DNA of 64,000 bases from Candidatus Parvarchaeota archaeon (GTDB lineage Archaea; Nanobdellota; Nanobdellia; JAAOXT01): positions 9,281-73,280 of the forward strand of contig JAFCDO010000001.1 of NCBI GenBank assembly GCA_017609605.1, written 5' to 3'. The notes beneath the pieces were generated by a model. That model ran no database searches. It had not been told where the DNA came from and saw only the letters and a program-made list of their open reading frames with translations. Below are positions 44,324-63,456 of this stretch, one piece after another. The translations under genes were made by a program, and so were the position numbers. Numbering within the stretch: position 1 is the stretch's first letter; the number at the start of each line of letters is the position of its first letter.

Positions 44324-44730
44324 AAAAAGCGCAGTTAAGCATCGAGTTTTTCACAACAATCTCTTTCCTAATCATGATTCTCATAACAGTTCTCATAATA
44401 TTTTTTCAGCGGAGCACTTCGCTTAACGACATGTCCAAGAGCGATAATTTAAAAATATCTTGCCAAGAACTAAGAACCAGTTTTTACTCGCTGATAAAAT
44501 CCAATAACTTGATAGAAAACTTATCATTACCCAAGTATTCAGGAGGGCTTCCTTACTCGTATCACGCGTATCCTAATGAATCTGTGGTCGTCATCGGTTT
44601 GGATGACAAATCTTTTATCTGTAACGTTCAAACAACGGGTTTCACCAATTCTTCTATGACTGAGCACGATTTTTTTATCAATCCTTCTGGCACTGCGAAA
44701 AGTGTTGACGAGGTGATAGTGTTTGAATAA
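44320..44730 (+). CDS. Prepilin-like protein (class III signal peptide)
   Basis: MKKAQLSIEFFTTISFLIMILITVLIIFF. There is an ATGA overlap upstream. It is the counterpart of 58628-59005. Confidence 0.7.
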   Translation: MKKAQLSIEFFTTISFLIMILITVLIIFFQRSTSLNDMSKSDNLKISCQELRTSFYSLIKSNNLIENLSLPKYSGGLPYSYHAYPNESVVVIGLDDKSFICNVQTTGFTNSSMTEHDFFINPSGTAKSVDEVIVFE

Positions 44731-44731
44731 A
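44712..44731 (+). repeat. Direct repeat, copy 1
   Basis: GGTGATAGTGTTTGAATAAA. It matches 44879-44898 at 19 of 20 positions, with the first 15 identical. Confidence 0.8.
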
Positions 44732-44791
44732 CGATTCTTCTTCAAAAACTCAGAAACCTCACAACTTCACCAAAAAAGTTTTTTGGTCAAG

Positions 44792-44861
44792 CCCTCAAAA
44801 ATCATCCCGTTTTTGGGGCCCCGAAAACTTATTCGTTTTCGAAGGCTTTTTAGAGCGAATA
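44792..44861 (+). repeat. Relic segment homologous to 18042-18098 (decayed gene fragment), with overlapping alternative hairpins
   Basis: Collinear shared blocks are CCCTCAAAAA, CCCGTT, TTTGGGGC and CCGAAA, plus the CGAAA(A/C)C-loop-G(T/G)TTTCG hairpin. Hairpins lie at 44809-44828 and 44822-44841. A further palindrome lies at 44770-44786. Confidence 0.5.
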
Positions 44862-44878
44862 GCAAGAAAAAGGTTGGG

Positions 44879-44898
44879 GGTGATAGTGTTTGAGTAAA
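44879..44898 (+). repeat. Direct repeat, copy 2
   Basis: GGTGATAGTGTTTGAGTAAA, 167 nt downstream of copy 1. It contains the TTG start of the next pilin gene. Confidence 0.8.
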
Positions 44899-45369
44899 GC
44901 GCAAATATTCACGACCAGCATGATATTTACAGTAGTGTTGTTCATAGTGATTCTTGGGATTGGGGCGAGGATGTGGGATTATTTGAGTTTAACCCAGAAA
45001 GACGTTACCAGGACGAGAGAGTTGGAACTGATGGTAACTCGGGTTTCAGACTTGCTGGTGTCAACTCCTGGCCAGCCTTACAACTGGACGACTGACGTTG
45101 AGTGTTTCGGGCTCTCAACTAACAAGCCTGGGGTGCTGGACGCGGGCAAAGTCAAACTTTTTTATGATTACTCTTTGAACAATTATTCTTTCGTAAAAGA
45201 GCGGTTGGGGATAGGTGGTTACGACTTCTCTTTCAGATTGGTTAAAGGTTCCGCAACACTATACTCTTATAACTGGACTTTTGATTACTCAAGGGACTTG
45301 TCGAAATCGGAAAGAATTGTGTTGCTCAACGATACCCCAATGATTTTTGAATTGGTGGTGAGGCAGTGA
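44890..45369 (+). CDS. Prepilin-like protein
   Basis: TTG start. (M)SKAQIFTTSMIFTVVLFIVILG. The GQPYNW and LGIGGYD motifs are shared with 59002-59481. Confidence 0.65.
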   Translation: MSKAQIFTTSMIFTVVLFIVILGIGARMWDYLSLTQKDVTRTRELELMVTRVSDLLVSTPGQPYNWTTDVECFGLSTNKPGVLDAGKVKLFYDYSLNNYSFVKERLGIGGYDFSFRLVKGSATLYSYNWTFDYSRDLSKSERIVLLNDTPMIFELVVRQ

Positions 45370-45791
45370 AAAAAGGTTTCGTGTTAATAACTGACATGCT
45401 GTTAGCGATTAGCATAATGGTGGTCATGGTCACATCTTCGGTTTACGTTATGAGAAACCATCCTGATTGGAAAAGAGTCAAGGAAACCCAGATGGCTAAC
45501 GATTTGCTTAACATTATGGACGAGCATAAAGTTTTGCAAACACTTAACTCCTCCAATTATTCGTCTTTCATTCAAGAGTATTTGCCTCAACAGTATAATG
45601 TTGAATTGATTGTTAGTGTTTACAACGCCAGCGCGCTCACACAGGAAATAATTCTTTTGCAGAACTTTGTTGTCAATCACCCTATCAACGCTTCAGGACC
45701 AACTGATTTCGGCATCGTGAAAAAATCGTTCTTAATCCAAGAAGGGAGGATAAAGAATTTTGGGGTGGCTGAGGTGAGGATTTGGATATGA
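45366..45791 (+). CDS. Prepilin-like protein (KG|F type)
   Basis: GTG start overlapping the upstream stop (GTGA). (M)KKGFVLITDMLLAISIMVV. It is the counterpart of 59478-59870. Confidence 0.6.
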   Translation: MKKGFVLITDMLLAISIMVVMVTSSVYVMRNHPDWKRVKETQMANDLLNIMDEHKVLQTLNSSNYSSFIQEYLPQQYNVELIVSVYNASALTQEIILLQNFVVNHPINASGPTDFGIVKKSFLIQEGRIKNFGVAEVRIWI

Positions 45792-46624
45792 AAGGAATTA
45801 TTTTCACTGTATCAGTTTTCTTGATATTCTCATTAATACTTGAGATTGCCATGTTGATTAGTCTTGTTAACACTTCCAGCAATAAAATAATAACCAGTAC
45901 TGTTCTGAGCGAAAAAATAACTGGTTATTCCAGAAATCTTATCAGCAATTTAGAAAAAGTGGCTAACACCGAGTTAAGCGCGGATAGTGCTGGAAGCGTC
46001 AGCGTGAAAACAAGCTTTCACGATTACAACGCGACAGGTTCGTTAAAAATTTTTGAGAAATGGGTTAACAACTTCTTCAACAATCAAACAAACATTGATG
46101 TTAAAACAAATCTTTCAGGAATGAGAGAAGCGATTAATCAAGGTTCTTTACTAATCCTTTTCGAACCTCAAGGAATCACGTGGGAAAACGTTTATTCCAG
46201 TAATAAAATAATTGGTTTTGCTTTGCACGGCGCTGATAAAATTAATTCCTTGGAGTTAAACGCTTCTTTTAACTGGTCAATCGTTAACTCGACTTGGGTT
46301 GGCAACCAGCCAGGGCAAGGAAGTTTCTTGTTCTCCATAAACCTTCCTGACCACAATGCTTCTTGGTTGCTTGACAAGAAGAATTACTATTTATCAATAG
46401 GCACTAGTGAAGGCTACTTGAACGTCCAGTTAAAACTGGATTCTGGAGAATCCGATAAGGTTATTGAAATAACTCCTGACTTTTACGGCGCGGAATTCTT
46501 AACAACTTTCAAGGTAAACCAAAGTAATGTATTTAAGGCGTCATACCCCTACAATAAAACTTGGGTTAACCTATCCGCCAATAATTTTGGTTTAAGCGTT
46601 TTTAACAACGGGAAGCTCACATGA
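45788..46624 (+). CDS. Prepilin-like protein (KG|I type)
   Basis: The ATG at 45788 overlaps the upstream stop (ATGA). MKGIIFTVSVFLIFSLILEI. The track start is TTG 45782. It is the counterpart of 59867-60631. Confidence 0.6.
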   Translation: MKGIIFTVSVFLIFSLILEIAMLISLVNTSSNKIITSTVLSEKITGYSRNLISNLEKVANTELSADSAGSVSVKTSFHDYNATGSLKIFEKWVNNFFNNQTNIDVKTNLSGMREAINQGSLLILFEPQGITWENVYSSNKIIGFALHGADKINSLELNASFNWSIVNSTWVGNQPGQGSFLFSINLPDHNASWLLDKKNYYLSIGTSEGYLNVQLKLDSGESDKVIEITPDFYGAEFLTTFKVNQSNVFKASYPYNKTWVNLSANNFGLSVFNNGKLT

Positions 46625-46956
46625 ATCTAAAAAAATTGTTTAAAAAAAAATTGAAAAAACCTCTAAAAAAAGTGGTGAAACACGGTTTTGGAGGGGAAAT
46701 CCTGACAGAAGTTGACGTAATGCTCTCCCACCTTAAACAGAAGAAAAAAGCGGATCTCAATTTTTTTGTCAAAAAGTTTGGTGAAGAAGAAAAACTTGTT
46801 GAAGAGTGGGCTAAGATCTTAGAATCAAACGGGTTGATTACGGTTGATTACACTCCTTTTGGCAAGGTTGTTTTAAAGATTGTGGAAGAAAAAAAAGAAG
46901 GTGATGTGAAAGAAAAAAAGAGAGAGGAAAATGATGAAGGAAACGGAAAAAATTGA
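46621..46956 (+). CDS. Lys-rich protein with a winged-helix-like domain, coupled to the secretion ATPase
   Basis: MNLKKLFKKKLKKPLKK. Its KLVEEWAKILESNGLITVDYTPFGKVVLKI aligns with EVVEEWANELSENNLVKMKYPLIGHPYLKI in 61283-61948. Confidence 0.55.
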   Translation: MNLKKLFKKKLKKPLKKVVKHGFGGEILTEVDVMLSHLKQKKKADLNFFVKKFGEEEKLVEEWAKILESNGLITVDYTPFGKVVLKIVEEKKEGDVKEKKREENDEGNGKN

Positions 46957-48751
46957 AGTTTATAAAATAACTGCTGATAACGTTCCAGTCAACATCACGA
47001 TAACCACTAGTCTGGATGAATTCACTCCTTTGTACATCATAAAATTGCCTGTGATTGGCATTGGTTCTAAGGCAATTCTTGAAAAGGTTAAGGAAGAAAT
47101 GATTGGCGCTGTTCCCTTATCCCCGAAGGAGGCTTTGGACGTTAAATCTGTGCAGAAGACTCGGAAAGTGTTTTCAGATAAGATTCTTGAATTATTGAAG
47201 AAAGAACTGCCTAACGAGTCTGACAGGACGCTTAAAATACTCGCCGGGTTCCTCGTTCACGAAACCCTTGGTTTAGGAACTATTGAATTCTTGCTTAACG
47301 ATGAAAACCTTGAAGAGATTGTCATCAACAGTTCTGAGGATAACATTTGGGTTTACCATAAAAAGTATGGCTGGCTGAAAACCAATATTCGCATTGATAA
47401 TGAGGGCCAGATATACGATTACGCTGCCAGCATTGCTAGAGAGATTGGCCGGAGCATAAGCAATTTGAACCCGTTATTGGATGCTCACCTCATCACTGGT
47501 GACAGAGTTAACGCCACGTTATTCCCTATTTCGTCTGCGGGTAACACGATAACGATTCGTAAATTCAGAAGAAAACCGTGGACCATAACAGAATTAATCG
47601 AAAACAGGACCGTAACTTCGGAAATCGTTAGTTTTATCTGGCTGGCCATGCAGTACGAGATGAGCATCATGTTTTCCGGCGGAACGGCTAGCGGGAAAAC
47701 CACTTTCATGACTTCCTGCATGCCTTTCATCCCTCCTAACCAGAGGGTTATCAGCATTGAAGACACCAGAGAAATAATGCTTCCTAAGTTCTTGCAATGG
47801 GTTCCTTTAACCACTAGGGAGCCGAACCCTGAAGGAAAAGGTGGAGTGAGAATGCTTGACTTGCTTGTCAACTCTTTAAGGATGAGGCCAGACAGAATCA
47901 TCGTAGGGGAAGTAAGGCGTCAGCAAGAGGCTGAAGTCCTGTTCGAAGCCATTCACACAGGTCACAGCGTTTACGCAACAGTGCACGCAGACACCGCCGA
48001 ACAAACCGTCAGAAGACTTACCAATCCTCCGATAAACCTGCCTGAATCAATGGTTAGCACTTTGCCGTTGATAGTTGTTGTTTACAGGCATAGAAGAAAG
48101 GGCATAAGAAGGATTTTGGAAGTATCCGAGCTTTTAGAATCCGGGAAGGCAGAAGGAAGAGAATTAATTAACGTCAACAGAGTTTTCAGGTGGAAACCCG
48201 CTTTTGACAAGTACGAAAAAGATAATGAAAGCATCAGGGTTCTCGACGACCTAGAAATGTTTACTGGCCTGACTCGCTCAGAAGTTGAAAAAGATCTTAA
48301 GGAAAAAATCGGCGTCCTAAATTGGATGGTCAAGCACGGCGTGAACACTGTTAATACTGTTGGAAAAATTGTTTCCACTTATTACTCGCATAAAGAAAAA
48401 TTGTTACAAGATGTTAGGAAGAACGCGAGTCCTAAAGAATTGTTGGGCAAATTATGGAAAGAGATTGAAGCACCTGTTGTCACGAAAGAAGTGAAGACCA
48501 AAAAGAGTGAAACCAGTCTGAGTCAAAAAGTGATTGAAGAACTCAAAAAAACTCCTTCCCCAAAAAAACCTGTAAAGAAAAAAAGTGTTAAGGAAAAAAA
48601 GGTGGAAGAAAAAAAAGAAAAGAAATTGGAACCTAAAACGGTGAAAAAAAAAGAAGCTAAAAAAAAGCTGGTTAAGAAAAAAACGAAGAAAAAGTCTCTC
48701 GCTAAGAAAAGGTTGGTAAAGAAGAAAAGAAAGGGGGTTAAGAAGAAGTGA
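46931..48751 (+). CDS. Type II/IV secretion-family ATPase (FlaI/PilB-like) with a long Lys-rich C-terminal tail
   Basis: Walker A GGTASGKTT, ISIEDTRE, Walker B RIIVGEVRR and His box TGHSVYATVHA. The last roughly 90 aa are K-rich (..KKPVKKKSVKEKKVEEKKEKK..). Confidence 0.9.
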   Translation: MMKETEKIEVYKITADNVPVNITITTSLDEFTPLYIIKLPVIGIGSKAILEKVKEEMIGAVPLSPKEALDVKSVQKTRKVFSDKILELLKKELPNESDRTLKILAGFLVHETLGLGTIEFLLNDENLEEIVINSSEDNIWVYHKKYGWLKTNIRIDNEGQIYDYAASIAREIGRSISNLNPLLDAHLITGDRVNATLFPISSAGNTITIRKFRRKPWTITELIENRTVTSEIVSFIWLAMQYEMSIMFSGGTASGKTTFMTSCMPFIPPNQRVISIEDTREIMLPKFLQWVPLTTREPNPEGKGGVRMLDLLVNSLRMRPDRIIVGEVRRQQEAEVLFEAIHTGHSVYATVHADTAEQTVRRLTNPPINLPESMVSTLPLIVVVYRHRRKGIRRILEVSELLESGKAEGRELINVNRVFRWKPAFDKYEKDNESIRVLDDLEMFTGLTRSEVEKDLKEKIGVLNWMVKHGVNTVNTVGKIVSTYYSHKEKLLQDVRKNASPKELLGKLWKEIEAPVVTKEVKTKKSETSLSQKVIEELKKTPSPKKPVKKKSVKEKKVEEKKEKKLEPKTVKKKEAKKKLVKKKTKKKSLAKKRLVKKKRKGVKKK

Positions 48752-49638
48752 TTAAGTTCCTGCCGTTTCTCCCCATGCCTGTCAGTCAGGTTTTAAAAGT
48801 TTCAAAACCTCTTCGGTTTGTTACAGAGTCCTTAAAAAAGTTTTATCCTGAGTTAAGCGTTGAGTTATTTCAAGCAGAGATTGAAATTGAACCAATGGAT
48901 TATTTAAGACTGGTCATTTTTGCTGCTGGATTCATGTTCTTCATTGGCTTGTCATCCATGCTTTTCGTCCTGCTCATCATCAAAGAATTCTCCGCACAGA
49001 ATCTTACGATGACTTTTGGGGTTGCGGGCGCGTTGATGGTGACCGCTTACGTTTACCTTATCAATTACCCTAAGTTCAAGATCATGCAGAAGGTTAAAAG
49101 GTCTGAAAAACATCTTTTGTTTGCTCTGAGGCACTTAACGATAAGGGTTAAATCAGGGATTCCTTTAATAGACGCGATTGAAGGAATTGCAAAAGGGGAT
49201 TACGGAGAGATTTCTAAAGAGTTCATGATAGCGATAAAACAAATCAAAGCAGGGGAGTCGCAGGCCCGTTCTATCGAAGATATTGCTTTGAGAAATCCTT
49301 CAGCCGAGTTGAGAAGAGTTGTTTGGCAGGTGTCCAACGCCATGAGGGCAGGGTCCGATATCGCTAAAACGTTGGAGTCCATTGTTCACACTCTCAGCAG
49401 TAAGCAAAGAGTTAACATTAAGGAGTATGGAGCGAAACTGAATCCTTTAGCTTTAATGTACATGATGGCTACAGTGATAATCCCTGCTTTAGGCACTACC
49501 ATGGTGATTATTCTCGGCTCGTTTTTGGGTTTGGAACTGCAGAAAGAAATTTTTTATTTCGTCCCGGTTTACTTAATCATTTTCCAAGTTGCTTTCATGG
49601 GGATTGTCAAAACTAATCGACCCGCAATGGAGGTGTGA
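48748..49638 (+). CDS. FlaJ/TadC-like membrane protein with one T2SSF domain
   Basis: ALRHLTIRVKSGIPLIDAIEGIAKGDYGEISKEF...LRRVVWQV. TM helices flank the domain. The GTG start overlaps the upstream stop. Confidence 0.75.
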   Translation: MIKFLPFLPMPVSQVLKVSKPLRFVTESLKKFYPELSVELFQAEIEIEPMDYLRLVIFAAGFMFFIGLSSMLFVLLIIKEFSAQNLTMTFGVAGALMVTAYVYLINYPKFKIMQKVKRSEKHLLFALRHLTIRVKSGIPLIDAIEGIAKGDYGEISKEFMIAIKQIKAGESQARSIEDIALRNPSAELRRVVWQVSNAMRAGSDIAKTLESIVHTLSSKQRVNIKEYGAKLNPLALMYMMATVIIPALGTTMVIILGSFLGLELQKEIFYFVPVYLIIFQVAFMGIVKTNRPAMEV

Positions 49639-49639
49639 A

Positions 49640-50620
49640 ATGAATAAGTTTTATAAAATGATAGGCTCTCGCCTGCCTAAAAGGTATTTAGAGTCCATTA
49701 GGAAAGACATGGTTTACGCGGGCATAGAGATTGATTACACTATTTGGGCCGCTTTCTTTTTCGTGTACGCTGTTGGCGTTGGCGGGGCGGGGCTCGTCGT
49801 CCCCCTATTGTTGCAACTTCCTTTGTGGGTGGCGTTGAGTGTTGGCATTGGACTGTTCACTTTGTTCATCGTTGTTTCGAAAATGCTTTTGGTGCTCGCG
49901 ATTGATAAGCGGGCTTCGTTTGTCGAAAAAGTATTACCTGATTTATTGATGTTGATAGCTTCTAACATTCGTTCTGGCATGAGCGTGGATAAGGCTTTGT
50001 TGTTGTCTGCTAGGCGTGAGTTCGGTCCTTTGGAGCAAGAGATTAAGAGGGTGTCTAAAGAAGCGTTTGCGGGCAAAAATTTTGGTGAAGCTCTTAAGAG
50101 TATTACGAAGCACATTCGATCCGTGACTCTTGAGAGAACTATTGAATTGATTAATGAGGGCATTCATTCTGGCGGCGAGATTGCCACGCTTTTAGAGTCA
50201 ACGGCAGAGGATATTCAGGAAGCGAGCATTATCAAGAAGGAGATCAATGCTAGCGTGATGATGTACGTTATTTTTATCATGGCTTCGGCTGGCGTGGGAG
50301 CTCCCTTACTTTACGCTGTTTCTATTGGTTTGGTTCAGGCTATCACCAAGTTCGGGGCGGTTCAGGTGCCTGACGATTATTTTAGTCAAATGCCTCTCAT
50401 GAAGATGAAAACTGTTAGTTTCGGGGAGGATTTCCTGATAATTTATTCTTTGGTTAGCTTGCTGTGCGTTGCCTTGTTTTCCGGCCCTATCATCGGGTTA
50501 ATCCAGAAGGGCAGTGAGAAAAAGGGTTTCAAGTACATTCCTTTAATGCTAGGGTTATCCATAGGATTTTTCCTGATAGCAAGAATGATGGTTTCACAGA
50601 TTTTCGCAGGATTCATCTAA
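49640..50620 (+). CDS. Second FlaJ/TadB-like membrane protein with one T2SSF domain
   Basis: LPDLLMLIASNIRSGMSVDKALLLSA...GKNFGEALKSITK...GGEIATLLESTAEDIQE. The ATG lies 2 nt after the upstream stop. Confidence 0.75.
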   Translation: MNKFYKMIGSRLPKRYLESIRKDMVYAGIEIDYTIWAAFFFVYAVGVGGAGLVVPLLLQLPLWVALSVGIGLFTLFIVVSKMLLVLAIDKRASFVEKVLPDLLMLIASNIRSGMSVDKALLLSARREFGPLEQEIKRVSKEAFAGKNFGEALKSITKHIRSVTLERTIELINEGIHSGGEIATLLESTAEDIQEASIIKKEINASVMMYVIFIMASAGVGAPLLYAVSIGLVQAITKFGAVQVPDDYFSQMPLMKMKTVSFGEDFLIIYSLVSLLCVALFSGPIIGLIQKGSEKKGFKYIPLMLGLSIGFFLIARMMVSQIFAGFI

Positions 50621-56439: not shown

Positions 56440-56449
56440 ATTAATAAAA
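56440..56449 (+). promoter_or_regulatory. TATA-box-like element for pilus locus 2
   Basis: ATTAATAAAA lies about 27 nt upstream of GTG 56472. Confidence 0.35.
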
Positions 56450-56471
56450 ACGCACCAACATTAACTTTTTC

Positions 56472-58631
56472 GTGATTAAAGGTCAGGTTAGCGTTGAATA
56501 CTTGATTATTGTAGGAATCCTACTCTTGGCTCTTACACCAATCGCTTATTTTGCTCAAGAACAAGCGCAACTAACAACCTCCCTAAAGCAAACCCAAGTC
56601 TCCTTAAAAAAGATTAAGAACGCTGTTAACGTAGTTAACTCTTTAGGCCCGCCATCACAACAAACACTATTAGTTCAGATTTCTGAAATGGTTAACGGCT
56701 CGTCAACAAGTGATAAAACCATAACTTTTTACACCTCCTCGGGTTCTGATTTGTGGGAAGAAGCGGACACTTGCATTGAAGGGGGCCTCCCGGAAAACCC
56801 TGGATACCATTTGATAACCATAAAGGCTTTGGATAACGGGTGTGTTTCCATTGGAGCGGAATCAATATTTATCGAACCATTATCGCTTACGCTTTTGGTT
56901 GACTTGAGTTTCAGCAAAACTCATGATTTCATGGTCACGAACACCCTATCACAACCAGTTAACGCGAACGTCACCGCCACGGGGGGCGTGGCTTCGTTAG
57001 TGGACGCGGATAACGTTACCGCGGGAAGACAAATTTTTTATGATATTGGATCGTTAAACGCGGGTGAAAGCAAAAGCGTTACTGCCGAGTTTTTCGGCGA
57101 TTCTTTAGGAGAGTATTCAGGCGTTCTTGAGTTCATGGGTGAAGACTCTACAGTTAATTCAAGCGTAACGGTCAAAGTGGTTCAAGGAGTTCTGAGTGTT
57201 GAACCCATCTACCAAATTATTGACGCTGACTTAAACGAGTACAACGAAGTTTCAATAATTATTAACAACACTGGTGAAGGAACACTATACTTTGTTAACC
57301 TAACTGTTGAACCAGGATTCGTTGATTACATAGACCTTATGCCCGGAGGGGTTAAGGATTCTTTCAGGGATTTAGGAAATCTTTCGTCAGGCATTCACGA
57401 TTACACGATAAGAATTTTCGGAAACCAAACAGGAATCAAAGATGGAAACATTACTGCGCGCGCCCTTTTCGGCCAAGAAGATAACTCTACTCTAACCATT
57501 AACGTTACAAACCCTATCCTAGTAGATTTGCATCCTGAAGTTGTTTTCGCGGACTGGTCGTCGCCTTACCAAATTACTGTTCTTAACTGGAATGGTACTC
57601 TAAAATTCGAGACAAGTGAAACAAATAACAACATTGACACTTTGGGTTTGGGAGGGAATAACATTCTGGCTGGAACAAATAATAATGGATTGGTTTATGC
57701 TTTAAATGGAGTTGATGGTTCTCAATTATGGAATCATACTTTATCAATTTTGGGTGACAGACTTAAGTCAAATATTGAAATTTATGATGGAAGTGTTTTT
57801 CTTGGAGGTAATTTAAAAAAGGTTTACAAAATCAACGCTAGCACAGGAGTTGAAATTTGGGTTTCAAGTAATTTTGCCCAGAACTCTATTGAAACCCTTG
57901 GAATCGGAGATTTTAACGGAGACTCCTTCATTGACGTGGCTGTCGCGGATATTGGGAACAAGCAAGTCTACGCTTTTGACGGAAGCGACGGATCTGTTTT
58001 GTGGTCTGCTACGCTTTCTTCAGCTGCCCTAATTGAGTCCAAGATTCTTATTGCAGAAGCCACTGGCGACTTTTTTGATGACGTTTTTGTTGGAACAAAC
58101 AAGAAAAAAGTTTACTTGCTCAATGGAAATGATGGAAGCGAGGTTTGGGTTTCTGGCAGTATCGGGGCCAACGTTGACTACATCACTGTTGGTGATTTCA
58201 ACAACGACGGAGTTAATGATGTTGCAGGCATGAATGATTGGGATGAATTCTTGTACGCTTTTTACGGGCAGAACGGTTCCCAAATGTGGAGTTATCAAAC
58301 CAATTGGGAGAACGCTTATGTTCTCGAATCAAAAGATTTGAACCATAATGGTTTTGACGACGTGATTTTCGGAAGAGACAACCAGAACGATTTCACTGTC
58401 CTTCATGGGGTGAACGGGACTCTAATGTATGTTTCTGACAATTGCCCTATAGCCATTAATCATTTGAATTTCGTTGACCTTAATTTAGACGGACTTATTG
58501 ATGTTGTTGGGGGTTTGACTTGGGATAACAGAATCGTGGCTTGGCAAGGAATAAACGGAACTCTGATGTGGACTTATTCTGCTGACGATGACGTTTCTTC
58601 AAACCTTCTAGCTGGACAGGTTGATTCATGA
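56472..58631 (+). CDS. Prepilin-like protein fused to a seven-bladed FG-GAP/PQQ-like beta-propeller
   Basis: N-terminus (M)IKGQVSVEYLIIVGILLLAL. The N-domain is shared with 41486-44323 (TCIEGGLPENPGYHLITIKALDNGCVSI). The C-terminus has seven repeats of the type VYA(L/F)xGxDGSxxW, several preceded by GDFNxDGxxDV loops. Confidence 0.75.
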   Translation: MIKGQVSVEYLIIVGILLLALTPIAYFAQEQAQLTTSLKQTQVSLKKIKNAVNVVNSLGPPSQQTLLVQISEMVNGSSTSDKTITFYTSSGSDLWEEADTCIEGGLPENPGYHLITIKALDNGCVSIGAESIFIEPLSLTLLVDLSFSKTHDFMVTNTLSQPVNANVTATGGVASLVDADNVTAGRQIFYDIGSLNAGESKSVTAEFFGDSLGEYSGVLEFMGEDSTVNSSVTVKVVQGVLSVEPIYQIIDADLNEYNEVSIIINNTGEGTLYFVNLTVEPGFVDYIDLMPGGVKDSFRDLGNLSSGIHDYTIRIFGNQTGIKDGNITARALFGQEDNSTLTINVTNPILVDLHPEVVFADWSSPYQITVLNWNGTLKFETSETNNNIDTLGLGGNNILAGTNNNGLVYALNGVDGSQLWNHTLSILGDRLKSNIEIYDGSVFLGGNLKKVYKINASTGVEIWVSSNFAQNSIETLGIGDFNGDSFIDVAVADIGNKQVYAFDGSDGSVLWSATLSSAALIESKILIAEATGDFFDDVFVGTNKKKVYLLNGNDGSEVWVSGSIGANVDYITVGDFNNDGVNDVAGMNDWDEFLYAFYGQNGSQMWSYQTNWENAYVLESKDLNHNGFDDVIFGRDNQNDFTVLHGVNGTLMYVSDNCPIAINHLNFVDLNLDGLIDVVGGLTWDNRIVAWQGINGTLMWTYSADDDVSSNLLAGQVDS

Positions 58632-59005
58632 AAGCACAGGTTAGCGTGGAAACACTTTTCGTAATTACTTTCATGGTCTCCTTATTTATAGTCATCACTA
58701 ACTCAGTGTATCACCGGAAGACCATGCTTGAATCCCAAGAATTTCTCGTCGAAGTTAAAAGCGTTTGCAACGCTTTCAGCAGCAAAGTGGCTGACGCGAC
58801 GCTGTTAGAAGGACTGGAAACCAATATGACTTTGAAAGGGTATAACTTGAGCGTTCAAGACAAGTCCGTGCAAGTCTTCTCCGAAAACGAAACAGTTTTC
58901 TGCAGTATGATAACAAGCGTGACCAACGGTTCTCACAGCGATTTCAACATCTCACAAGAAGTCGTGACCATCCAAAATTTGAACGGGGGCGTGATGATAA
59001 GTTGA
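58628..59005 (+). CDS. Prepilin-like protein
   Basis: MKAQVSVETLFVITFMVSLFIVI. ATGA overlap upstream. Confidence 0.7.
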   Translation: MKAQVSVETLFVITFMVSLFIVITNSVYHRKTMLESQEFLVEVKSVCNAFSSKVADATLLEGLETNMTLKGYNLSVQDKSVQVFSENETVFCSMITSVTNGSHSDFNISQEVVTIQNLNGGVMIS

Positions 59006-59481
59006 AAGCGCAAATCGTGTCCCTTGACTTCGTGGTCGCCATAACAGTGTTTGCAATACTCTTTTACGCTGGAATAACTATGTGGAACGATTACTCCAGA
59101 GACCTGGAAAAAAGTTATTCCACCAACGAGTTAAGAATGAAAGCTTACGGCGCGAGCGTTTCCTTAATGGACTCATCCGGCCAGCCCTTCAACTGGTCCA
59201 TCGAATCAAATCGAGCAGGAGTCAAAGATTTTGAAAACATTGATTCCGGAAAACTTGAAAGACTGATTGATTACGCGTCAAACGATTACGAAAACTCTAA
59301 GAAACTTTTAGGACTGCAAGAATATGATTACAGGATAATAGTGAATTATTCGAACGGCACCAATATTTACGATTCTGGAAAAAGTTACGCTTTAGCCGAT
59401 GAAATCGTTGCCATTAAAAGACTTGCGCTAATGGAAGGGGCTGGCGTGAACATTAAACTAATTGTTTGGAGGGAAAAATGA
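59002..59481 (+). CDS. Prepilin-like protein
   Basis: The TTG start overlaps the upstream stop (TTGA). (M)KAQIVSLDFVVAITVFAILF. Motifs GQPFNW and LGLQEYD. Confidence 0.65.
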   Translation: MKAQIVSLDFVVAITVFAILFYAGITMWNDYSRDLEKSYSTNELRMKAYGASVSLMDSSGQPFNWSIESNRAGVKDFENIDSGKLERLIDYASNDYENSKKLLGLQEYDYRIIVNYSNGTNIYDSGKSYALADEIVAIKRLALMEGAGVNIKLIVWREK

Positions 59482-59870
59482 GTAAAGGCTTCGTCTTTTC
59501 ACTGGACGTTTTCTTCGCTGCAATGATAATAACTTTTTTCCTAGCAACTTTTCCCTCCCAAGAACACGAAACCCATTACGATAAATTGATGCTGTTAAAG
59601 CAGGCACAAGACACTTTGAACGTCCTGACACCTTCTTTGCAGGGCATGAACCAAGAAACCATTAACGACTCGCTTAAAGAACTAATTCCTCCAAACCTCA
59701 ATCACTCGCTGGAAGTTCTTTACTACAACCCAGACAATTCTTTGAATCAATCCATCAACTTAGGCGACCCGGTCACAACAGATTTTGTTAACGCGCGAAG
59801 AATATTCTTGGTGACAAGCGAAGGCAACATCACCTTGTTAGGTAAAGCAGAAATGAGGTTATGGCCATGA
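59478..59870 (+). CDS. Prepilin-like protein (KG|F type)
   Basis: ATG 59478 overlaps the upstream stop (ATGA). MSKGFVFSLDVFFAAMIITFF. The track start is 59466. Confidence 0.6.
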   Translation: MSKGFVFSLDVFFAAMIITFFLATFPSQEHETHYDKLMLLKQAQDTLNVLTPSLQGMNQETINDSLKELIPPNLNHSLEVLYYNPDNSLNQSINLGDPVTTDFVNARRIFLVTSEGNITLLGKAEMRLWP

Positions 59871-60631
59871 AAAAAGGGATCCTTATGTCACTAATGACTC
59901 TTGCTTTCTTCACAGTCATAAGTTCTCTGGTCTTCCTTGTCTTCATCCAAAACAACAATTATGGTGAGACTTTTGTTAACTCAATCGCTGCTTCCCGGAC
60001 GAGCCAGGAGGTAAATACCGTGAAAAACAATCTTTTCAAAGCAACAAATCTTTATCACTCCGTTTCAAGCAGTGACTCAGTTAACCTAACATTTCATTCT
60101 TATTTGAACTCTTTTTTTAACGCTAGTCATAACATGAACTCTTATGACTCTTTCCTAACCCATGTTTACGGCATCTCTCACGACTTTTCTAACCTGATCT
60201 TGAGCGTTGATAACGGTTACTTGGAACAAATCGTTCAACCGTATGGAATCCTGATAACTAATAATTATTCTGCCAAAAAAATTGTTTGGAACAATACGAG
60301 CTCAGCGACTGCACTAAAACTAAAACTGCCAGAAGTTAATCAAGTGACTTGGCAGAACGATGCGGGCTCACTGAAGGTCATAATTGAAAGCCCAGAGTTT
60401 TATGAGGAAAAACTTGTGGGCGAAGCCAACGTAACAGTAAAAATCAGTGAAAGTTCTAACGTGACCTGGCAGGTCCGTCAAAACAATTTCACTTTAAATT
60501 ATTCTAATTCGAGCGGTGAAACTGCTGAATTAACTCTCGTCCTGCCTGAAGAAGAAAGCTTGAGAATCAATTTTGTCCAAGAGTACGGCCTAAACGTTTC
60601 AGCAGGAAAATATTATTTTAAAAATGTCTAA
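59867..60631 (+). CDS. Prepilin-like protein (KG|I type)
   Basis: ATG 59867 overlaps the upstream stop (ATGA). MKKGILMSLMTLAFFTVISSLVF. An alternative ATG lies at 59861. Confidence 0.6.
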   Translation: MKKGILMSLMTLAFFTVISSLVFLVFIQNNNYGETFVNSIAASRTSQEVNTVKNNLFKATNLYHSVSSSDSVNLTFHSYLNSFFNASHNMNSYDSFLTHVYGISHDFSNLILSVDNGYLEQIVQPYGILITNNYSAKKIVWNNTSSATALKLKLPEVNQVTWQNDAGSLKVIIESPEFYEEKLVGEANVTVKISESSNVTWQVRQNNFTLNYSNSSGETAELTLVLPEEESLRINFVQEYGLNVSAGKYYFKNV

Positions 60632-61282: not shown

Positions 61283-61948
61283 ATGCCTCCTAAAAAAAGT
61301 TCGCGTAAAAAAAACAAGAAACCAGTGAAAAACCCTGTTAAAAAAATTGTTAAACCTAAAGTCAAGAAACATATCAAAAAAAAAGTGGGTTGCGAACTTC
61401 AAGAAATATTCGGTCAAGCACTAAAAGTCGGGATCCAGCACGAAAAGATTAGAAAAGATATAATCAAATACGGTTTAGAAGAACTGGAAAAAATTGAGAA
61501 AGACCCGAAAAAAGCTTTTAAGATAAGAAATAAATGGACTTCAACTCTTGATAAAACTTTTCGCAAAGGCGGGAAAAGAATTATGTGGTTCCTAAAACCA
61601 GGGTTCTGGGAGCCAATACAGGAAGAACTGCCCTTCCTTGACGAGAAATCCTGGATTAAAAAGAGCCAAGAAAAACTCGACAAAGCGGTTAAGAACTTTA
61701 AAGTGACTAAAATCAAAACCAGGAGTGGAAAAACCATAATCCTACCACCTCTTAACCGTTTCGACACGAAAGCGGATTTATTGCTTGAAATAGTGAAAAT
61801 GACGAAAAAAATCAGTGTTAAAGAACTTTCAAAAATATTGAAGGCGGACTATGAAGTAGTGGAAGAATGGGCTAACGAGCTAAGCGAAAACAATTTAGTC
61901 AAGATGAAGTACCCGCTGATAGGCCACCCTTACCTAAAAATAAAATGA
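61283..61948 (+). CDS. Lys-rich protein with a winged-helix-like C-terminal domain, coupled to the secretion ATPase
   Basis: MPPKKSSRKKNKKPVKNPVKKIVKPKVKKHIKKK. The C-terminus ISVKELSKILKADYEVVEEWANELSENNLVKMKYPLIGHPYLKI is homologous to 46621-46956. Confidence 0.55.
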   Translation: MPPKKSSRKKNKKPVKNPVKKIVKPKVKKHIKKKVGCELQEIFGQALKVGIQHEKIRKDIIKYGLEELEKIEKDPKKAFKIRNKWTSTLDKTFRKGGKRIMWFLKPGFWEPIQEELPFLDEKSWIKKSQEKLDKAVKNFKVTKIKTRSGKTIILPPLNRFDTKADLLLEIVKMTKKISVKELSKILKADYEVVEEWANELSENNLVKMKYPLIGHPYLKIK

Positions 61949-63456
61949 AGATAATCACGAATTACAAAACAACAACTTTTGACGTAGAAATCCCTGTCAG
62001 AATCCTCCAAAAGAAAGGAGAATACACTCTTGTTTACGAGGTTTCACTACCCGAGGTTAAGCCCGCTACCCGAGCCATAATTATGGGGATTAAAGAAGAT
62101 TTAATGCATGAAGTAAAATTATCAGAGGAAGAAATTATTGACGAGAGAGCGATAAAAATGGTTCAGACCAAAATAAAGGAAAAAGCTGTCAAAATAATGA
62201 GAAAGAACTTTCCAAAAGAGTCTAAAGAAAAGCTAAACAATCTCCTGTGCGTAATTCTTTCAGAAACGATTGGGCTCGGACCCGTGGAATACTTGCTTAA
62301 CGACCCTGAACTGGAAGAAGTAGTGGTTCACGGGCAAAAAGCTCCTGCCTGGGTTTACCATAGAACGCACGGCTGGCTTAAAACAAACATTTTTTTAACA
62401 GAAAAACAGGTTTACGATTACTCCACAATAATTGGAAGAAAAGTTGGGAGAAGCATAAGCCGTCTTGACCCCTTACTAGATGCTAGGTTATTAAACGGTG
62501 ACAGGATTAACGCGGTATTATATCCCATATCCTACTTTGGTAATACGATAACGATTCGTAAATTCAGGAAAAAACCTTGGACGATTGTGGACTTGATAAA
62601 AAATGACACGCTAACAGTCGAAGAGGCCGCACTCCTATGGCTGGCAACCCAGTATGAAATATCTTATCTCATTGCTGGCGGAACGGCTAGCGGGAAAACC
62701 ACGCTTCTGAACACCTTAATGGCTTTCATTCCTCCAAATCATAGAGTGATTAGCATTGAAGACACCAAAGAACTTCAACTTCCATCATTTCTTTACTGGA
62801 CTTCCCTAGTGGTCAGGGAGCCAAACCTTGAAGGCAAAGGAGGTATTAGTATGCAAGAACTCTTAATCAACTCTTTAAGGATGCGGCCGGACAGAATTAT
62901 TGTTGGAGAAGTTAGAAGAAAGTTTGAAGCAGAAACCTTGTTCGAAGCCATTCACACGGGTCACAGCGTTTACGCAACAGTTCATGCTGAAACAGGAGAG
63001 CAAACCGTTCAAAGACTTACCCACGACCCAATGAACATTCCTGAAGGGATGATAAGCGCAATTCCCTTGATTGTTGTCATGTTCAGGGATCGAAGAAAAG
63101 GAATAAGAAGATTATCAGAATTGTCAGAGGTCATATCCACCGAAATCATGGGAAAAGCAAGGATTGTCATCAACAAGGTTCGGGAATGGGATTCCAGTTC
63201 TAACGAACACTTTTCCTCAAACCCATCCAAAACCTTAACACAAAAAATAAAGGTGTACACCGGGATGAGCGAAGAAGATGTTACAAAAGACTTGAACGAC
63301 AAAAAAAAGGTTTTGAAATGGATGATTGAAAATGAGTTAAGCGGGTTAGAAAACGTTGGCAGGATTATAAGCGCTTATTTTCTGGATTCCAGAACTCTTC
63401 TTGAAATGATTCGAAAAAATTGTTCAAAAGCAGAGGTTCTAAAACATTATGGGTGA
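61945..63456 (+). CDS. Type II/IV secretion-family ATPase (FlaI/PilB-like); paralogue of 46931-48751
   Basis: GGTASGKTT, ISIEDTKE, RIIVGEVRR and TGHSVYATVHA. ATGA overlap upstream. Confidence 0.9.
   Translation: MKIITNYKTTTFDVEIPVRILQKKGEYTLVYEVSLPEVKPATRAIIMGIKEDLMHEVKLSEEEIIDERAIKMVQTKIKEKAVKIMRKNFPKESKEKLNNLLCVILSETIGLGPVEYLLNDPELEEVVVHGQKAPAWVYHRTHGWLKTNIFLTEKQVYDYSTIIGRKVGRSISRLDPLLDARLLNGDRINAVLYPISYFGNTITIRKFRKKPWTIVDLIKNDTLTVEEAALLWLATQYEISYLIAGGTASGKTTLLNTLMAFIPPNHRVISIEDTKELQLPSFLYWTSLVVREPNLEGKGGISMQELLINSLRMRPDRIIVGEVRRKFEAETLFEAIHTGHSVYATVHAETGEQTVQRLTHDPMNIPEGMISAIPLIVVMFRDRRKGIRRLSELSEVISTEIMGKARIVINKVREWDSSSNEHFSSNPSKTLTQKIKVYTGMSEEDVTKDLNDKKKVLKWMIENELSGLENVGRIISAYFLDSRTLLEMIRKNCSKAEVLKHYG

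What the first reader, a model, noticed from the sequence alone, without database searches (positions are those of the whole stretch)
56472..58631. Prepilin signal peptide fused to a seven-bladed FG-GAP-like beta-propeller
Seen in sequence: the N-terminus IKGQVSVEYLIIVGILLLAL is a class III signal peptide. Two beta-sandwich-like modules follow. From about 57628 there are seven repeats of about 40-45 aa: VYALNGVDGSQLW, VYKINASTGVEIW, VYAFDGSDGSVLW, VYLLNGNDGSEVW, LYAFYGQNGSQMW, FTVLHGVNGTLMY and IVAWQGINGTLMW. Four are preceded by Ca-binding-like loops (GDFNGDSFIDV, GDFNNDGVNDV, DLNHNGFDDV, DLNLDGLIDV).

Established knowledge: this repeat pattern is typical of integrin-alpha/FG-GAP or PQQ-like propellers.

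Inference: this is a pilus-tip or minor pilin that presents an integrin-like propeller as an adhesin. A propeller anchored through a pilin helix is an unusual architecture.
Basis: partly seen in the sequence, partly recalled or inferred. Interest (0 to 1): 0.7.

Follow-up and report, generated by a model that had tools for sequence, protein, structure and literature searches.

The report
Archaeal pilin carrying a beta-propeller head
A tiny symbiotic-type (DPANN) archaeon encodes a pilus subunit with a stalk and an eight-bladed propeller "head" attached, most likely a sticky pilus tip, and the head alone has been swapped for a very different version in a nearly identical sister strain.

Summary
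The ORF (56472-58631, +, 719 aa) is real and modular. It has an Epd/EppA-type class III signal peptide (MIKG|QVSVE; +1 Gln and +5 Glu invariant in relatives). A pilin module follows, then two Ig-like beta-sandwiches and a C-terminal propeller. The propeller has EIGHT blades, not seven: eight GxxxW motifs, 32 predicted strands, and best fold matches to BamB and designed 8-bladed propellers. It is a PQQ/BamB-like fold with four FG-GAP-type DxNxDGxxD loops, not an integrin-type propeller.

The gene heads an operon of four further class III proteins, a FlaI/TadA-type ATPase and, in the syntenic relative, two TadC-like genes. A gene-for-gene paralogous operon upstream (41486-50620) has a homologous pilin-stalk with an unrelated head.

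The same pilin-propeller fusion occurs in three other DPANN protein clusters. Databases name them only "PQQ-like beta-propeller repeat protein".

New finding: against a sister MAG with ~97% identical neighbours, aa 1-345 are 91% identical but the propeller only 56%. Its synonymous sites are saturated and the boundaries are sharp, which indicates whole-module replacement.

Best reading: an archaeal modular minor pilin or tip adhesin. This is a new variant of a known kind (bacterial modular pilins, PilY1). Function and tip location are inferred, not shown.

The parts
56472..58631 (+). Whole gene: 719-aa modular class III (prepilin-like) protein, first gene of the operon
   Evidence: ORF listed. 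A 72%-identical ortholog, P0002, lies in a syntenic locus.
56472..56483 (+). Leader peptide MIKG; predicted cleavage after Gly4, between nt 56483 and 56484
   Evidence: KG|QV is identical to the processing sites of M. maripaludis EpdB and EpdC (PMC4371748 Table 1). Pfam PF04021 hit. The cleavage itself is inferred.
56484..56645 (+). Hydrophobic N-terminal alpha-1 helix of the mature pilin (aa 5-58), with +1 Gln and +5 Glu
   Evidence: Helix 3-58 in the AF2 model. Q5, E9 and Y10 are invariant in the 7-sequence alignment A2.
56646..56876 (+). Globular beta-sheet part of the pilin module (aa 59-135), with the conserved Cys101/Cys124 pair
   Evidence: Strands 63-135. C101 and C124 are invariant. 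Stand-alone 134-136-aa pilins P0161 and P0162 are homologous to this module alone.
56877..57185 (+). Stalk beta-sandwich 1 (aa ~136-238)
   Evidence: AF2 strands 138-237, pLDDT 82-92. Foldseek hits are tandem Ig/ASH/PapD-like sandwiches. Shared with paralog 41486-44323 and with P0037, P0134 and P0149.
57186..57506 (+). Stalk beta-sandwich 2 (aa ~239-345)
   Evidence: AF2 strands 241-344. Shared with the paralog and P0022 only.
57528..58628 (+). Eight-bladed beta-propeller head (aa 353-719) with inferred 3+1 'velcro' closure
   Evidence: 32 strands, pLDDT 70-91. Foldseek: BamB E = 3e-15; designed 8-bladed Tako8/Ika8 TM 0.76-0.77. Pfam PQQ_2 and FG-GAP_3. Eight GxxxW anchors; the N-terminal 27 aa plus the C-terminal 19 aa make up one repeat unit.
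57909..57935 (+). Ca-type loop DFNGDSFID (blade 4)
   Evidence: Motif scan; sequence.
58194..58220 (+). Ca-type loop DFNNDGVND (blade 6)
58335..58361 (+). Ca-type loop DLNHNGFDD (blade 7)
58476..58502 (+). Ca-type loop DLNLDGLID (blade 8)
57500..58635 (+). Divergent block relative to sister MAG JAAOXT010000027.1: the whole propeller module is an anciently diverged allele
   Evidence: Nucleotide identity is 82-100% on either side and 43-78% inside, with sharp edges at ~57500 and ~58640. pS is 0.755 inside versus 0.16 in aa 1-345 and 0.06-0.21 in neighbouring genes.
58628..59005 (+). Pilin-like gene 2 (125 aa, MKA|QVSVETL); its start overlaps the target's stop (ATGA)
   Evidence: Positional homolog of 44320-44730.
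59002..59481 (+). Pilin-like gene 3 (159 aa, KA|QIVSLDF)
   Evidence: Homolog of 44890-45369, E = 2e-16.
59478..59870 (+). Pilin-like gene 4 (MSKG|FVFSL; probable ATG start at 59478, giving 130 aa as in the relative)
   Evidence: Homolog of 45366-45791, E = 9e-11.
59861..60631 (+). Pilin-like gene 5 (256 aa, MAMKKG|ILMSL)
   Evidence: Homolog of 45782-46624, E = 1e-6.
61283..61948 (+). Lys-rich small protein whose C-terminus is homologous to 46621-46956; conserved position just upstream of the ATPase
   Evidence: Weak HTH-type Pfam hints only. Start is inferred from the 217-aa gene in the relative.
61945..63456 (+). FlaI/TadA-type secretion ATPase of the operon
   Evidence: Pfam T2SSE 2.1e-34; NCBIfam FlaI model 1.9e-83, below its cutoff. 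In the relative it is followed by two T2SSF (TadC-like) genes.
41486..50620 (+). Paralogous pilus operon with the same gene order: 945-aa pilin-stalk protein with an unrelated Ig-rich head, four pilin-like genes, a small protein, an ATPase and two TadC-like genes
   Evidence: T2SSF hit.

Best explanation
The gene encodes a modular type IV pilin-like protein of a DPANN ('Nanoarchaeota'/Woesearchaeota-type) archaeon.

Inferred pathway:
- An EppA-like prepilin peptidase removes the 4-residue leader (MIKG|Q).
- The hydrophobic alpha-1 helix and small beta-sheet (aa 5-135) act as an ordinary pilin module. The operon's ATPase/TadC machinery inserts this module into a filament, together with the four co-transcribed pilin-like proteins.
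- The two Ig-like sandwiches, the stalk, hold a Ca-loop-bearing eight-bladed propeller away from the fibre.
- Because the C-terminal part is bulky (about 580 aa), the subunit can only sit at the tip or at the very base/cell surface. The tip is more likely, with the subunit part of a priming complex with the minor pilins.
- The propeller is the ligand-binding (adhesive) module. Its ligand is probably on a host cell or another surface.

The pilin-stalk part is a conserved carrier. The head is exchangeable, both between the two paralogous operons and, by recombination, between closely related strains.

Shown: the domain architecture, the operon context, recurrence of the fusion, and module-level allelic replacement. 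Inferred: cleavage, incorporation into the pilus, tip position, adhesion and the ligand.
For: Signal peptide:
- Pfam Class_IIIsignal at or above its cutoff.
- The KG|QV site with +1 Gln and +5 Glu equals the experimentally defined EppA substrates EpdB/EpdC (PMC4371748).
- Q+1, E+5 and Y+6 are invariant across 7 relatives.

Pilin module:
- The AF2 model shows a 56-residue N-terminal helix plus a beta-sheet, with a conserved Cys pair.
- The same module exists as stand-alone 134-136-aa pilins.

Context:
- Four more class III proteins follow with overlapping start and stop codons, then a T2SSE ATPase.
- In the syntenic relative, two T2SSF genes come next.
- A MinD and KaiC-like ATPases lie nearby.
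- The paralogous operon is homologous gene for gene.

Propeller:
- 8 blades, pLDDT 70-91, with Foldseek matches to 8-bladed propellers at TM up to 0.77.

Extracellular location:
- N-glycosylation sequons run at 2-4 per 100 aa in all ten class III proteins, versus 0-1.2 in cytoplasmic proteins.

Recurrence:
- P0006/P0155 (Woesearchaeota AR4 type) sits in an analogous locus with KaiC-like genes, small genes of which at least three have class III-like N-termini, and a T2SSE ATPase.
- P0007 and P0106 carry the same class III + pilin + C-terminal propeller design with stalks of different length.

Exchangeable head:
- N-terminal relatives carry unrelated heads.
- Between the window and the sister MAG, neighbours are 91-100% identical and aa 1-345 are 91% identical. 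The propeller is 56% identical, with saturated synonymous sites and sharp breakpoints at the domain boundary and the stop codon.
Against: - No prepilin peptidase gene was found in the 64-kb window.
- No obvious small major-pilin gene is present. Stand-alone major pilins encoded elsewhere are the rule in the related methanogen system (PMC4858521).
- The Foldseek search of the N-terminal model returned only Ig/ASH-like sandwiches and no solved pilin. The pilin fold therefore rests on the predicted topology alone.
- One same-architecture homolog, P0007, is an orphan gene with no pilus genes nearby.
- No expression, cleavage, localisation or binding data exist.
- The structure models rest on alignments of only 4 and 7 sequences.
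- The two genomes compared are MAGs, so strain mixing during assembly could shape the mosaic.
Confidence: 0.65

Rival explanations
1. Bindosome-like or pseudopilus display. The class III signal and pilin module only anchor the protein in a short, cell-proximal structure, or in the membrane. This is how Sulfolobus sugar-binding proteins are processed by PibD and assembled by BasEF. On this reading the propeller captures a solute or polymer at the cell surface rather than acting at a pilus tip.
For: Archaeal class III signals are also used by bindosome subunits (PMC4371748). NCBIfam gives a sub-threshold BasE (bindosome ATPase) match for the operon ATPase, 6.6e-43. No major pilin gene is evident in the locus.
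Against: The ATPase matches FlaI and TadA models better than BasE. The locus carries four further pilin-like genes, two TadC genes and a MinD. This is the pattern of the Epd-type pilus (clade/system 1), not the bindosome. A ~200-aa rigid stalk and strain-level head replacement fit recognition of a variable external partner better than nutrient binding.
Confidence: 0.15
2. Assembly primer rather than adhesin. Like CofB/TcpB or the GspK-type large minor pilins, the protein mainly initiates filament assembly with the four minor pilins. The propeller would then be a scaffold that contacts machinery or envelope components, much as BamB docks by beta-augmentation.
For: The gene is first in the operon and is translationally coupled to four minor-pilin-like genes. 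The closest fold is BamB, a protein-protein scaffold. Bulky bacterial minor pilins are known initiators (PMC8179133 discussion).
Against: A structural scaffold that contacts conserved machinery should be conserved. Here the propeller is the least conserved segment of the whole region (56% versus 91-100%), while all machinery proteins are 91-99% identical. The paralogous operon uses an unrelated head on the same carrier. The two roles are not mutually exclusive.
Confidence: 0.1
3. Ordinary uncleaved N-terminal transmembrane anchor. On this reading it is a type II membrane protein or S-layer-associated propeller protein that merely sits next to pilus genes.
For: The Pfam class III hit on the full-length protein is exactly at threshold. 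One homolog, P0007, lies outside any pilus locus. No peptidase gene is in the window.
Against: A 4-residue basic leader ending in Gly, followed by Q+1 and E+5, is invariant in relatives and identical to proven EppA substrates. The downstream genes carry the same motif. The globular part after the helix is homologous to stand-alone small pilins.
Confidence: 0.07
4. PQQ-dependent dehydrogenase or another propeller enzyme, as the public annotation 'PQQ-binding-like beta-propeller repeat protein' might suggest.
For: Pfam PQQ_2 hit and the NCBI names. Tetrathionate hydrolase is among the fold matches.
Against: PQQ_2 is the BamB-type non-catalytic repeat family. The BamB equivalog models score far below their cutoffs (48 versus 285 bits). 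The propeller is a minimal 367 aa built from regular 43-48-aa repeats, with no insertions for a cofactor pocket. Sequence matches to solved structures are BamB only.
Confidence: 0.02

Closest known systems
Bacterial modular type IV pilins (S. sanguinis PilB with a vWA module, PilC with a lectin module; ETEC CofB; V. cholerae TcpB). The InterPro catalogue in Raynaud et al. 2021 (PMC8179133) includes IPR012902-IPR013517 (FG-GAP) architectures.
   Same: An N-terminal class III signal and small pilin module serve as a carrier, with a bulky functional module grafted onto the C-terminus. Tip location and direct adhesion are expected. Bacterial pilin + FG-GAP-repeat architectures are already listed: 5 and 3 proteins for two architectures.
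   Different: This protein is archaeal, with an EppA/Epd-type signal (QxSxE) rather than the bacterial IPR012902 N-methylation motif. The Raynaud survey does not mention archaea. It has a two-domain Ig-like stalk between carrier and head. The head is a complete eight-bladed propeller. No bacterial FG-GAP pilin has been characterised, to my knowledge.
PilY1/PilC tip adhesin with the four core minor pilins of bacterial type IVa pili
   Same: A calcium-site-bearing beta-propeller adhesin works with a set of four minor pilins encoded together. The design is modular, with a conserved carrier and variable modules (PMC8179133 discussion).
   Different: PilY1 is not a pilin; it docks on the minor pilins. 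Here the propeller is covalently fused to a pilin. There is no Pfam hit to the PilC/PilY1 propeller family at E <= 0.1, and no PilY1 structure among the top 50 fold matches. PilY1 is described as a modified seven-bladed propeller (my own knowledge); this one has eight blades.
Epd pilus of Methanococcus maripaludis: archaeal T4P clade 1 (Makarova 2016) / TFF 'system 1' (bioRxiv 2026)
   Same: The KG|Q processing site with +1 Gln and +5 Glu matches. So do the two platform (TadC-like) genes, the single ATPase, the several (at least 5) class III proteins in the locus and the nearby MinD/FleN-type ATPase. Large adhesin-like proteins occur in both, and system 1 is reported in some DPANN.
   Different: [quoted passage not shown] Neither paper mentions a propeller (0 occurrences). 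No EppA gene is in this window. Membership of the ATPase in that clade was not tested phylogenetically.
BamB (YfgL), the eight-bladed PQQ-like propeller lipoprotein
   Same: It is the best structural match (E = 3e-15, TM 0.60-0.70) and the only solved family detected by sequence (8.6e-6). It shares the eight four-stranded blades.
   Different: There is no functional relation. BamB is a bacterial outer-membrane assembly factor. The equivalog models score far below cutoff. BamB lacks the FG-GAP-type DxNxDGxxD loops.
Integrin alpha / FG-GAP seven-bladed propellers
   Same: The DxNxDGxxD Ca-type loops sit between strands 1 and 2 of four blades. Pfam FG-GAP_3 scores above its cutoff.
   Different: This propeller has eight blades, not seven. 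No integrin is in the top 50 fold matches for the propeller model, and no integrin sequence match was found in the PDB at E <= 0.01.

Membership tests
Archaeal class III signal peptide proteins, EppA/Epd subtype | Short basic leader ending in Gly/Ala at -1 with Lys/Arg at -2 | tested here: met
   M-I-K-G|Q, identical to the KG|QV of EpdB and EpdC.
Archaeal class III signal peptide proteins, EppA/Epd subtype | Conserved +1 Gln and +5 Glu followed by a ~20-residue hydrophobic helix | tested here: met
   QVSVEYLIIVGILLLALTPIAYF. Q5 and E9 are invariant in A2. Pfam PF04021 scores 23.7-26.5 bits against a cutoff of 23.7.
Archaeal class III signal peptide proteins, EppA/Epd subtype | Actual cleavage by a dedicated prepilin peptidase (EppA/PibD/FlaK) | not testable with these tools
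   No Peptidase_A24-like gene was recognised in the window. The rest of the genome was not available.
Type IV pilin (structural definition) | Long N-terminal alpha-helix packed against a C-terminal antiparallel beta-sheet ('lollipop') | tested here: inconclusive
   AF2 predicts helix 3-58 plus strands 63-135 at pLDDT 53-82. Foldseek gave no pilin match because the sandwich domains dominate the search. Homology to stand-alone 134-136-aa pilin-sized proteins supports the fold.
Type IV pilin (structural definition) | Encoded with, and assembled by, a T2SSE ATPase plus a T2SSF platform | tested here: met
   Genomic linkage only. The ATPase is at 61945-63456, and two T2SSF genes follow it in the syntenic relative. 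Assembly itself was not tested.
Modular pilins (sensu Raynaud et al. 2021) | Pilin module followed by one or more extra domains not specific to pilus biology | tested here: met
   Pilin module aa 1-135, then two Ig-like sandwiches and a PQQ_2/FG-GAP_3 propeller.
Modular pilins (sensu Raynaud et al. 2021) | N-terminal IPR012902 bacterial prepilin N-methylation motif | tested here: not met
   The Pfam and NCBIfam scans returned no bacterial N-methylation-motif family for this protein at E <= 0.1. The archaeal Class_IIIsignal family matches instead. The protein therefore works like a modular pilin but lies outside that operational definition.
Integrin-alpha / FG-GAP propeller | Seven FG-GAP blades | tested here: not met
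   Eight repeats and 32 strands. The best matches are 8-bladed propellers.
Integrin-alpha / FG-GAP propeller | DxDxDGxxD-type Ca-binding hairpin loops | tested here: met
   Four loops fit D-x-N-x-[DN]-x-x-x-D, three with Gly at position 6. Ca binding itself was not tested.
PilY1/PilC adhesin | C-terminal PilC/PilY1 beta-propeller domain (IPR008707) | tested here: not met
   No such Pfam family at E <= 0.1. No PilY1 in the top 50 fold matches.
BamB (outer membrane protein assembly factor) | Score above the equivalog cutoff of TIGR03300 / NF008351 | tested here: not met
   48.1 bits versus 285.2, and 40.8 bits versus 423. The fold resembles BamB but the protein is not a family member.
PQQ-dependent dehydrogenase | Large (>500 aa) eight-bladed propeller with a cofactor pocket and catalytic residues | tested here: not met
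   The propeller is a minimal 367 aa of regular repeats. No dehydrogenase family or structure was matched.

The most novel reading that the evidence does not exclude
In DPANN archaea the pilin-stalk carrier is a platform for interchangeable receptor-binding heads. Whole head modules (here the eight-bladed propeller) are exchanged by homologous recombination between otherwise near-identical strains. A genome also keeps two parallel pilus operons with different heads. The head would then determine host or partner range in episymbiosis, which would make it an archaeal, pilus-based counterpart of tail-fibre swapping in phages.
Probability: 0.3. Interest if true: 0.7.

Novelty: new variant of a known kind. 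Interest (0 to 1): 0.45.

Why it matters
DPANN archaea are thought to live attached to host cells, but the molecules that recognise the host are essentially unknown.

- This protein gives a concrete, testable candidate. It is a pilus subunit with a defined carrier, stalk and binding head, and the head can be expressed alone.
- It extends the 'modular pilin' principle, established in bacteria, to archaea, with a head type (a complete propeller) not described in the archaeal pilus surveys that were read.
- Strain-level replacement of just the head is the signature expected of a recognition molecule under diversifying or frequency-dependent pressure. It marks this locus as a place to look for host-specificity determinants in metagenomes.
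- A practical point: public annotation ('PQQ-like beta-propeller repeat protein') hides the pilin nature of the whole family.

Tried and rejected
- The word-indexed protein search found almost nothing. The full-length query gave only itself, P0002 and three weak bacterial FG-GAP proteins. The N-terminal profile gave only three hits. Most relatives came from the exhaustive HMMER search instead.
- The genome-contig scan with the N-terminal 345 aa found only the same sister MAG. The metagenome-contig scan found nothing. No further alleles could therefore be sampled.
- The identical 70-aa ferredoxin was used as a hook to pull other strains. It returned the sister MAG and one 2.2-kb contig that does not reach the gene.
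- A search for silent propeller cassettes (pilS-like) by tblastn and blastn in the window and L001 found none. Gene conversion from nearby cassettes is therefore not supported.
- A diversity-generating retroelement or loop-focused hypervariation was considered and rejected. Divergence is uniform over strands and loops (52-68%), and synonymous sites are saturated.
- The paralogous 945-aa pilin was tested for a similarly hypervariable head using L008. That genome is too distant (minor pilins 50-64% identical, the large pilin 68%), so the test says nothing about strain-level swapping.
- Foldseek of the N-terminal model was used to confirm a pilin fold, but tandem Ig/ASH hits swamped the result. 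The profile search of the PDB with A2 gave only chance hits, E >= 0.2.
- No prepilin peptidase candidate turned up among the multi-TM ORFs of the window.
- The sigma-70 promoter and terminator scan was at background level, as expected for an archaeon.
- No tRNA or Rfam feature occurs anywhere in the window.
Full report
**1. The observation**

The ORF is at exactly the stated coordinates: 56472..58631 on the + strand, 719 aa, with a GTG start and no earlier start codon in frame.

Pfam supports three elements:
- Class_IIIsignal (PF04021) matches aa 3-22 at 23.7 bits, exactly the gathering cutoff. It scores 26.5 bits when only aa 1-135 are scanned.
- PQQ_2 scores 3.2e-14.
- FG-GAP_3 scores 9e-9 over three stretches.

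One detail is wrong. There are eight repeats, not seven. The eight GxxxW anchors lie at aa 375, 416, 459, 507, 555, 602, 649 and 696, with a period of 41-48.

The 27 residues before the first anchor plus the 19 residues after the last one add up to one repeat unit. So the chain starts and ends in mid-blade. I read this as a 3+1 'velcro' closure; that is inferred from the repeat phase.

**2. Structure**

Two AlphaFold2 models were made.
- *Full-length model (4-sequence alignment).* It is reliable only for aa 353-719, where pLDDT is 70-91. That region has 32 strands, i.e. 8 blades of 4.
- *Fold matches for the propeller.* The best Foldseek hits in the PDB are all eight-bladed propellers: BamB (E = 3e-15, TM 0.60-0.70), tetrathionate hydrolase, the Fbw7 WD40 domain, and the designed 8-bladed Tako8/Ika8, which align over their full length at TM 0.76-0.77. 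By sequence, only BamB is detectable among solved structures.
- *What is absent.* No integrin and no PilY1 appears in the top 50. The head is therefore a closed eight-bladed PQQ/BamB-like propeller that carries FG-GAP-type loops. It is not an integrin-like seven-bladed propeller.
- *N-terminal model (aa 1-345, 7-sequence alignment, mean pLDDT 76.9).* It shows a helix at aa 3-58, a small sheet at aa 63-135, and two beta-sandwiches at aa 138-237 and 241-344. Foldseek on this model returns tandem Ig/ASH/PapD-like sandwiches.

**3. The N-terminus is a real prepilin-type signal**

- The predicted site MIKG|QVSVE has Lys at -2, Gly at -1, Gln at +1 and Glu at +5.
- This is the pattern of M. maripaludis EppA substrates. 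EpdB and EpdC are processed at KG|QV, and the +1 Gln is required by EppA (PMC4371748, Table 1 and text).
- In an alignment of seven relatives, Q+1, E+5, Y+6 and a Cys pair (C101, C124) are invariant.
- The pilin module also exists on its own. P0161 and P0162 are 134-136-aa proteins ('MKAQVSVEYLLIIGF...') homologous to aa 1-130 of the target.
- N-glycosylation sequons run at 2-4 per 100 aa in all ten class III proteins of the window, against 0-1.2 per 100 aa in cytoplasmic proteins. This fits an extracellular location.

**4. Context**

The gene is first in an operon.
- Four further proteins have class III-like N-termini: MKA|QVSVETL, KA|QIVSLDF, MSKG|FVFSL and MAMKKG|ILMSL. Their start and stop codons overlap.
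- A Lys-rich small protein follows, then a FlaI/TadA-type ATPase (T2SSE 2.1e-34).
- In the syntenic relative, two TadC-like (T2SSF) genes come next.
- A MinD/ParA gene and two KaiC-like ATPase genes lie just upstream.

A second operon at 41486-50620 has the same gene order, and each gene is homologous to its positional counterpart. The ATPases are 50% identical, and the minor pilins match at E = 1e-3 to 2e-16. Its first gene (945 aa, RRA|QVGME) shares aa 1-337 with the target at 35% identity and 189 bits. It then continues into an unrelated Ig-rich head.

The layout has two platform genes, at least five class III proteins, a MinD-type ATPase and a large adhesin-like protein. This matches what has been described for archaeal T4P clade 1 / TFF system 1, which is reported in methanogens, Thermococcales and some DPANN (PMC4858521; bioRxiv 10.64898/2026.04.22.720090). 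I did not test clade membership of the ATPase by phylogeny. No prepilin peptidase gene was found in the window.

**5. Organism and relatives**

The only close relative is P0002 (723 aa, 72% identical). It comes from 'MAG: Nanoarchaeota archaeon isolate DPANNHV_H2.bin.114', assembly GCA_018221045.1, in a fully syntenic locus.

An exhaustive HMMER search of 1.84 billion representative proteins gave 5500 hits at E <= 1e-3. Almost all were propeller-only matches in giant surface proteins. Three other clusters share the full design of class III signal, pilin module and C-terminal eight-repeat propeller:
- *P0006/P0155 (670-671 aa).* The cluster includes KHO45119.1 of the Woesearchaeota-type 'archaeon GW2011_AR4'.
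- *P0007 (538 aa).* The pilin module is joined almost directly to the propeller.
- *P0106 (1221 aa).* It has a long Cys-rich stalk with MopE-like motifs.

The P0155 gene sits behind two KaiC-like genes. Five small genes follow it, at least three of them with class III-like N-termini, and a T2SSE ATPase lies further on. P0007 is an orphan gene.

Other N-terminal relatives (P0022, P0037, P0134, P0149) carry unrelated heads. Public names, where they exist, say only 'PQQ-like beta-propeller repeat protein'.

The family is small. Scans of genome and metagenome contigs found no further members close to the target.

**6. The head has been replaced as a module**

Protein identity between the window and the sister MAG:

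| Region | Identity |
|---|---|
| 17 neighbouring genes | 91-100% |
| The two ATPases | ~98% |
| Four minor pilins | 91-97% |
| Target aa 1-345 | 91% |
| Target aa 346-719 | 56% |

- *Nucleotide level.* Identity falls from 82-100% to 43-78% at about nt 57500. That is aa ~343, the stalk/propeller boundary. It returns to 93-98% at about nt 58640, just past the stop codon.
- *Synonymous divergence.* dS is 0.06-0.25 in neighbouring genes and 0.10-0.16 in aa 1-240. It is saturated in the propeller (pS = 0.755), where dN is 0.31.
- *Distribution within the propeller.* Divergence is even across strands and loops, at 52-68% identity.
- *Donor sequences.* No silent cassette exists in either locus.

This pattern is not point-mutational positive selection or DGR-type mutagenesis. 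It shows that two anciently diverged propeller alleles sit on the same carrier. That points to homologous replacement of the whole head, or to long-term balanced polymorphism.

One caveat applies: both sequences are MAG contigs. Even if strain mixing shaped the assemblies, the variation itself would still be real.

**7. Mechanism proposed**

The steps are as follows.
1. A prepilin peptidase cleaves after Gly4 (inferred).
2. The pilin module is extracted from the membrane and polymerised by the ATPase/TadC machinery together with the four minor pilin-like proteins (inferred from linkage).
3. The ~580-aa C-terminal part cannot be accommodated in a filament body. The subunit is therefore incorporated first and ends up at the tip. 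This is inferred by analogy with bacterial modular pilins, PMC8179133.
4. The two Ig-like domains form a stalk, and the propeller binds a ligand. Binding is perhaps Ca-dependent through its four DxNxDGxxD loops (inferred).

The exchangeable head, the two parallel operons with different heads, and the DPANN lifestyle suggest recognition of a partner cell or surface. In Saccharibacteria, which are bacterial episymbionts, one of two type IV pili contributes to host binding (PMC12206443). That is an analogy and not evidence.

**8. Rivals**

- *Bindosome-like surface display.* Possible, but the locus composition argues against it.
- *Assembly primer only.* Compatible with the operon position, but hard to reconcile with the head being the least conserved part of the region.
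- *Uncleaved membrane anchor.* Argued against by the invariant KG|Q...E motif and by homology to small pilins.
- *Enzyme.* No support.

**9. Comparison with what is known, and novelty**

Functionally the protein resembles two things. One is bacterial modular pilins. The other is the PilY1 plus four-minor-pilin tip complex, with the propeller fused to a pilin instead of docked on one.

The 2021 catalogue of bacterial modular pilins already lists IPR012902-IPR013517 architectures. IPR013517 is the FG-GAP repeat according to my own knowledge of InterPro. The idea of a pilin carrying FG-GAP repeats is therefore not new.

That survey does not mention archaea. The two archaeal T4P/TFF surveys I read do not mention a propeller at all.

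I therefore class this as a new variant of a known kind. It is an archaeal, EppA-type modular pilin with an Ig-like stalk and a complete eight-bladed propeller head, and it shows strain-level head replacement.

Interest is moderate. The architecture will not astonish a pilus specialist. It does offer a concrete handle on DPANN surface recognition.

Noticed in passing
window 41486-50620 (+): A complete paralogous pilus operon with the same gene order as the target's. It holds a 945-aa class III protein (RRA|QVGME) with a homologous pilin-stalk but an Ig-rich, Cys-containing head and no Pfam hits. Four pilin-like genes follow, then a small protein, a 606-aa ATPase with a very Lys-rich C-terminal tail, and two TadC-like genes.
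   Followed up: partly
window 20830-30333 (+): A second surface-protein cluster with no Pfam matches. It holds a 394-aa protein with a class III-like start (MKKG|QIAVPVAL), a 791-aa protein with ~7 N-terminal TM helices, and a 1321-aa Cys-rich protein with a lipobox-like 'LAGC'. Two paralogous ~330-aa proteins with 'MAGC'/'LLGC' lipobox-like motifs follow. Function unknown.
   Followed up: partly
window 50761-51441 (+), 55542-56384 (-), 54421-55173 (-); L006 323-2154: KaiC-like (ArlH/FlaH-like?) ATPase genes and a MinD/ParA gene sit between the two pilus operons. Two KaiC-like genes also directly precede the pilin-propeller gene of the Woesearchaeota-type homolog. This suggests a conserved regulatory association.
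   Followed up: no
window ~57640-57660 (aa 390-397): In the window's allele, the loop of the first blade that carries DxNxDGxxD in P0002, P0006 and P0007 ('GDLNGDGLNDV') is deleted ('LGLGG------NNILAG'). The number of Ca-type loops therefore differs between alleles.
   Followed up: partly
window 60618-61283 (-) and 61211-61948 (+): A small GTPase gene (MMR_HSR1) on the opposite strand interrupts the operon between the pilin-like genes and the ATPase. The mechanical ORF calls overlap. Comparison with the relative (205 and 217 aa) suggests shorter real genes, with the + strand gene starting at the ATG near 61283. The relative also has an extra 100-aa minus-strand ORF here (L001 14179-14481).
   Followed up: partly
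window 59466-59870 (+): The mechanical ORF starts at TTG 59466. The ATG at 59478 gives MSKG|FVFSL and the 130-aa length called in the relative, so 59478 is the likelier start.
   Followed up: yes
window 56420-56471: An A/T-rich TATA-like stretch ('TTTTTTAAGGGGAATAATTAATAAAAA') ends about 25 nt before the GTG start, and there is no Shine-Dalgarno motif. This is compatible with a leaderless archaeal transcript.
   Followed up: no
whole window: No tRNA gene and no Rfam family at gathering threshold was found in 64 kb. The 70-aa ferredoxin (55320-55532) is 100% identical in the sister MAG and in one Logan contig (SRR15671255).
   Followed up: yes
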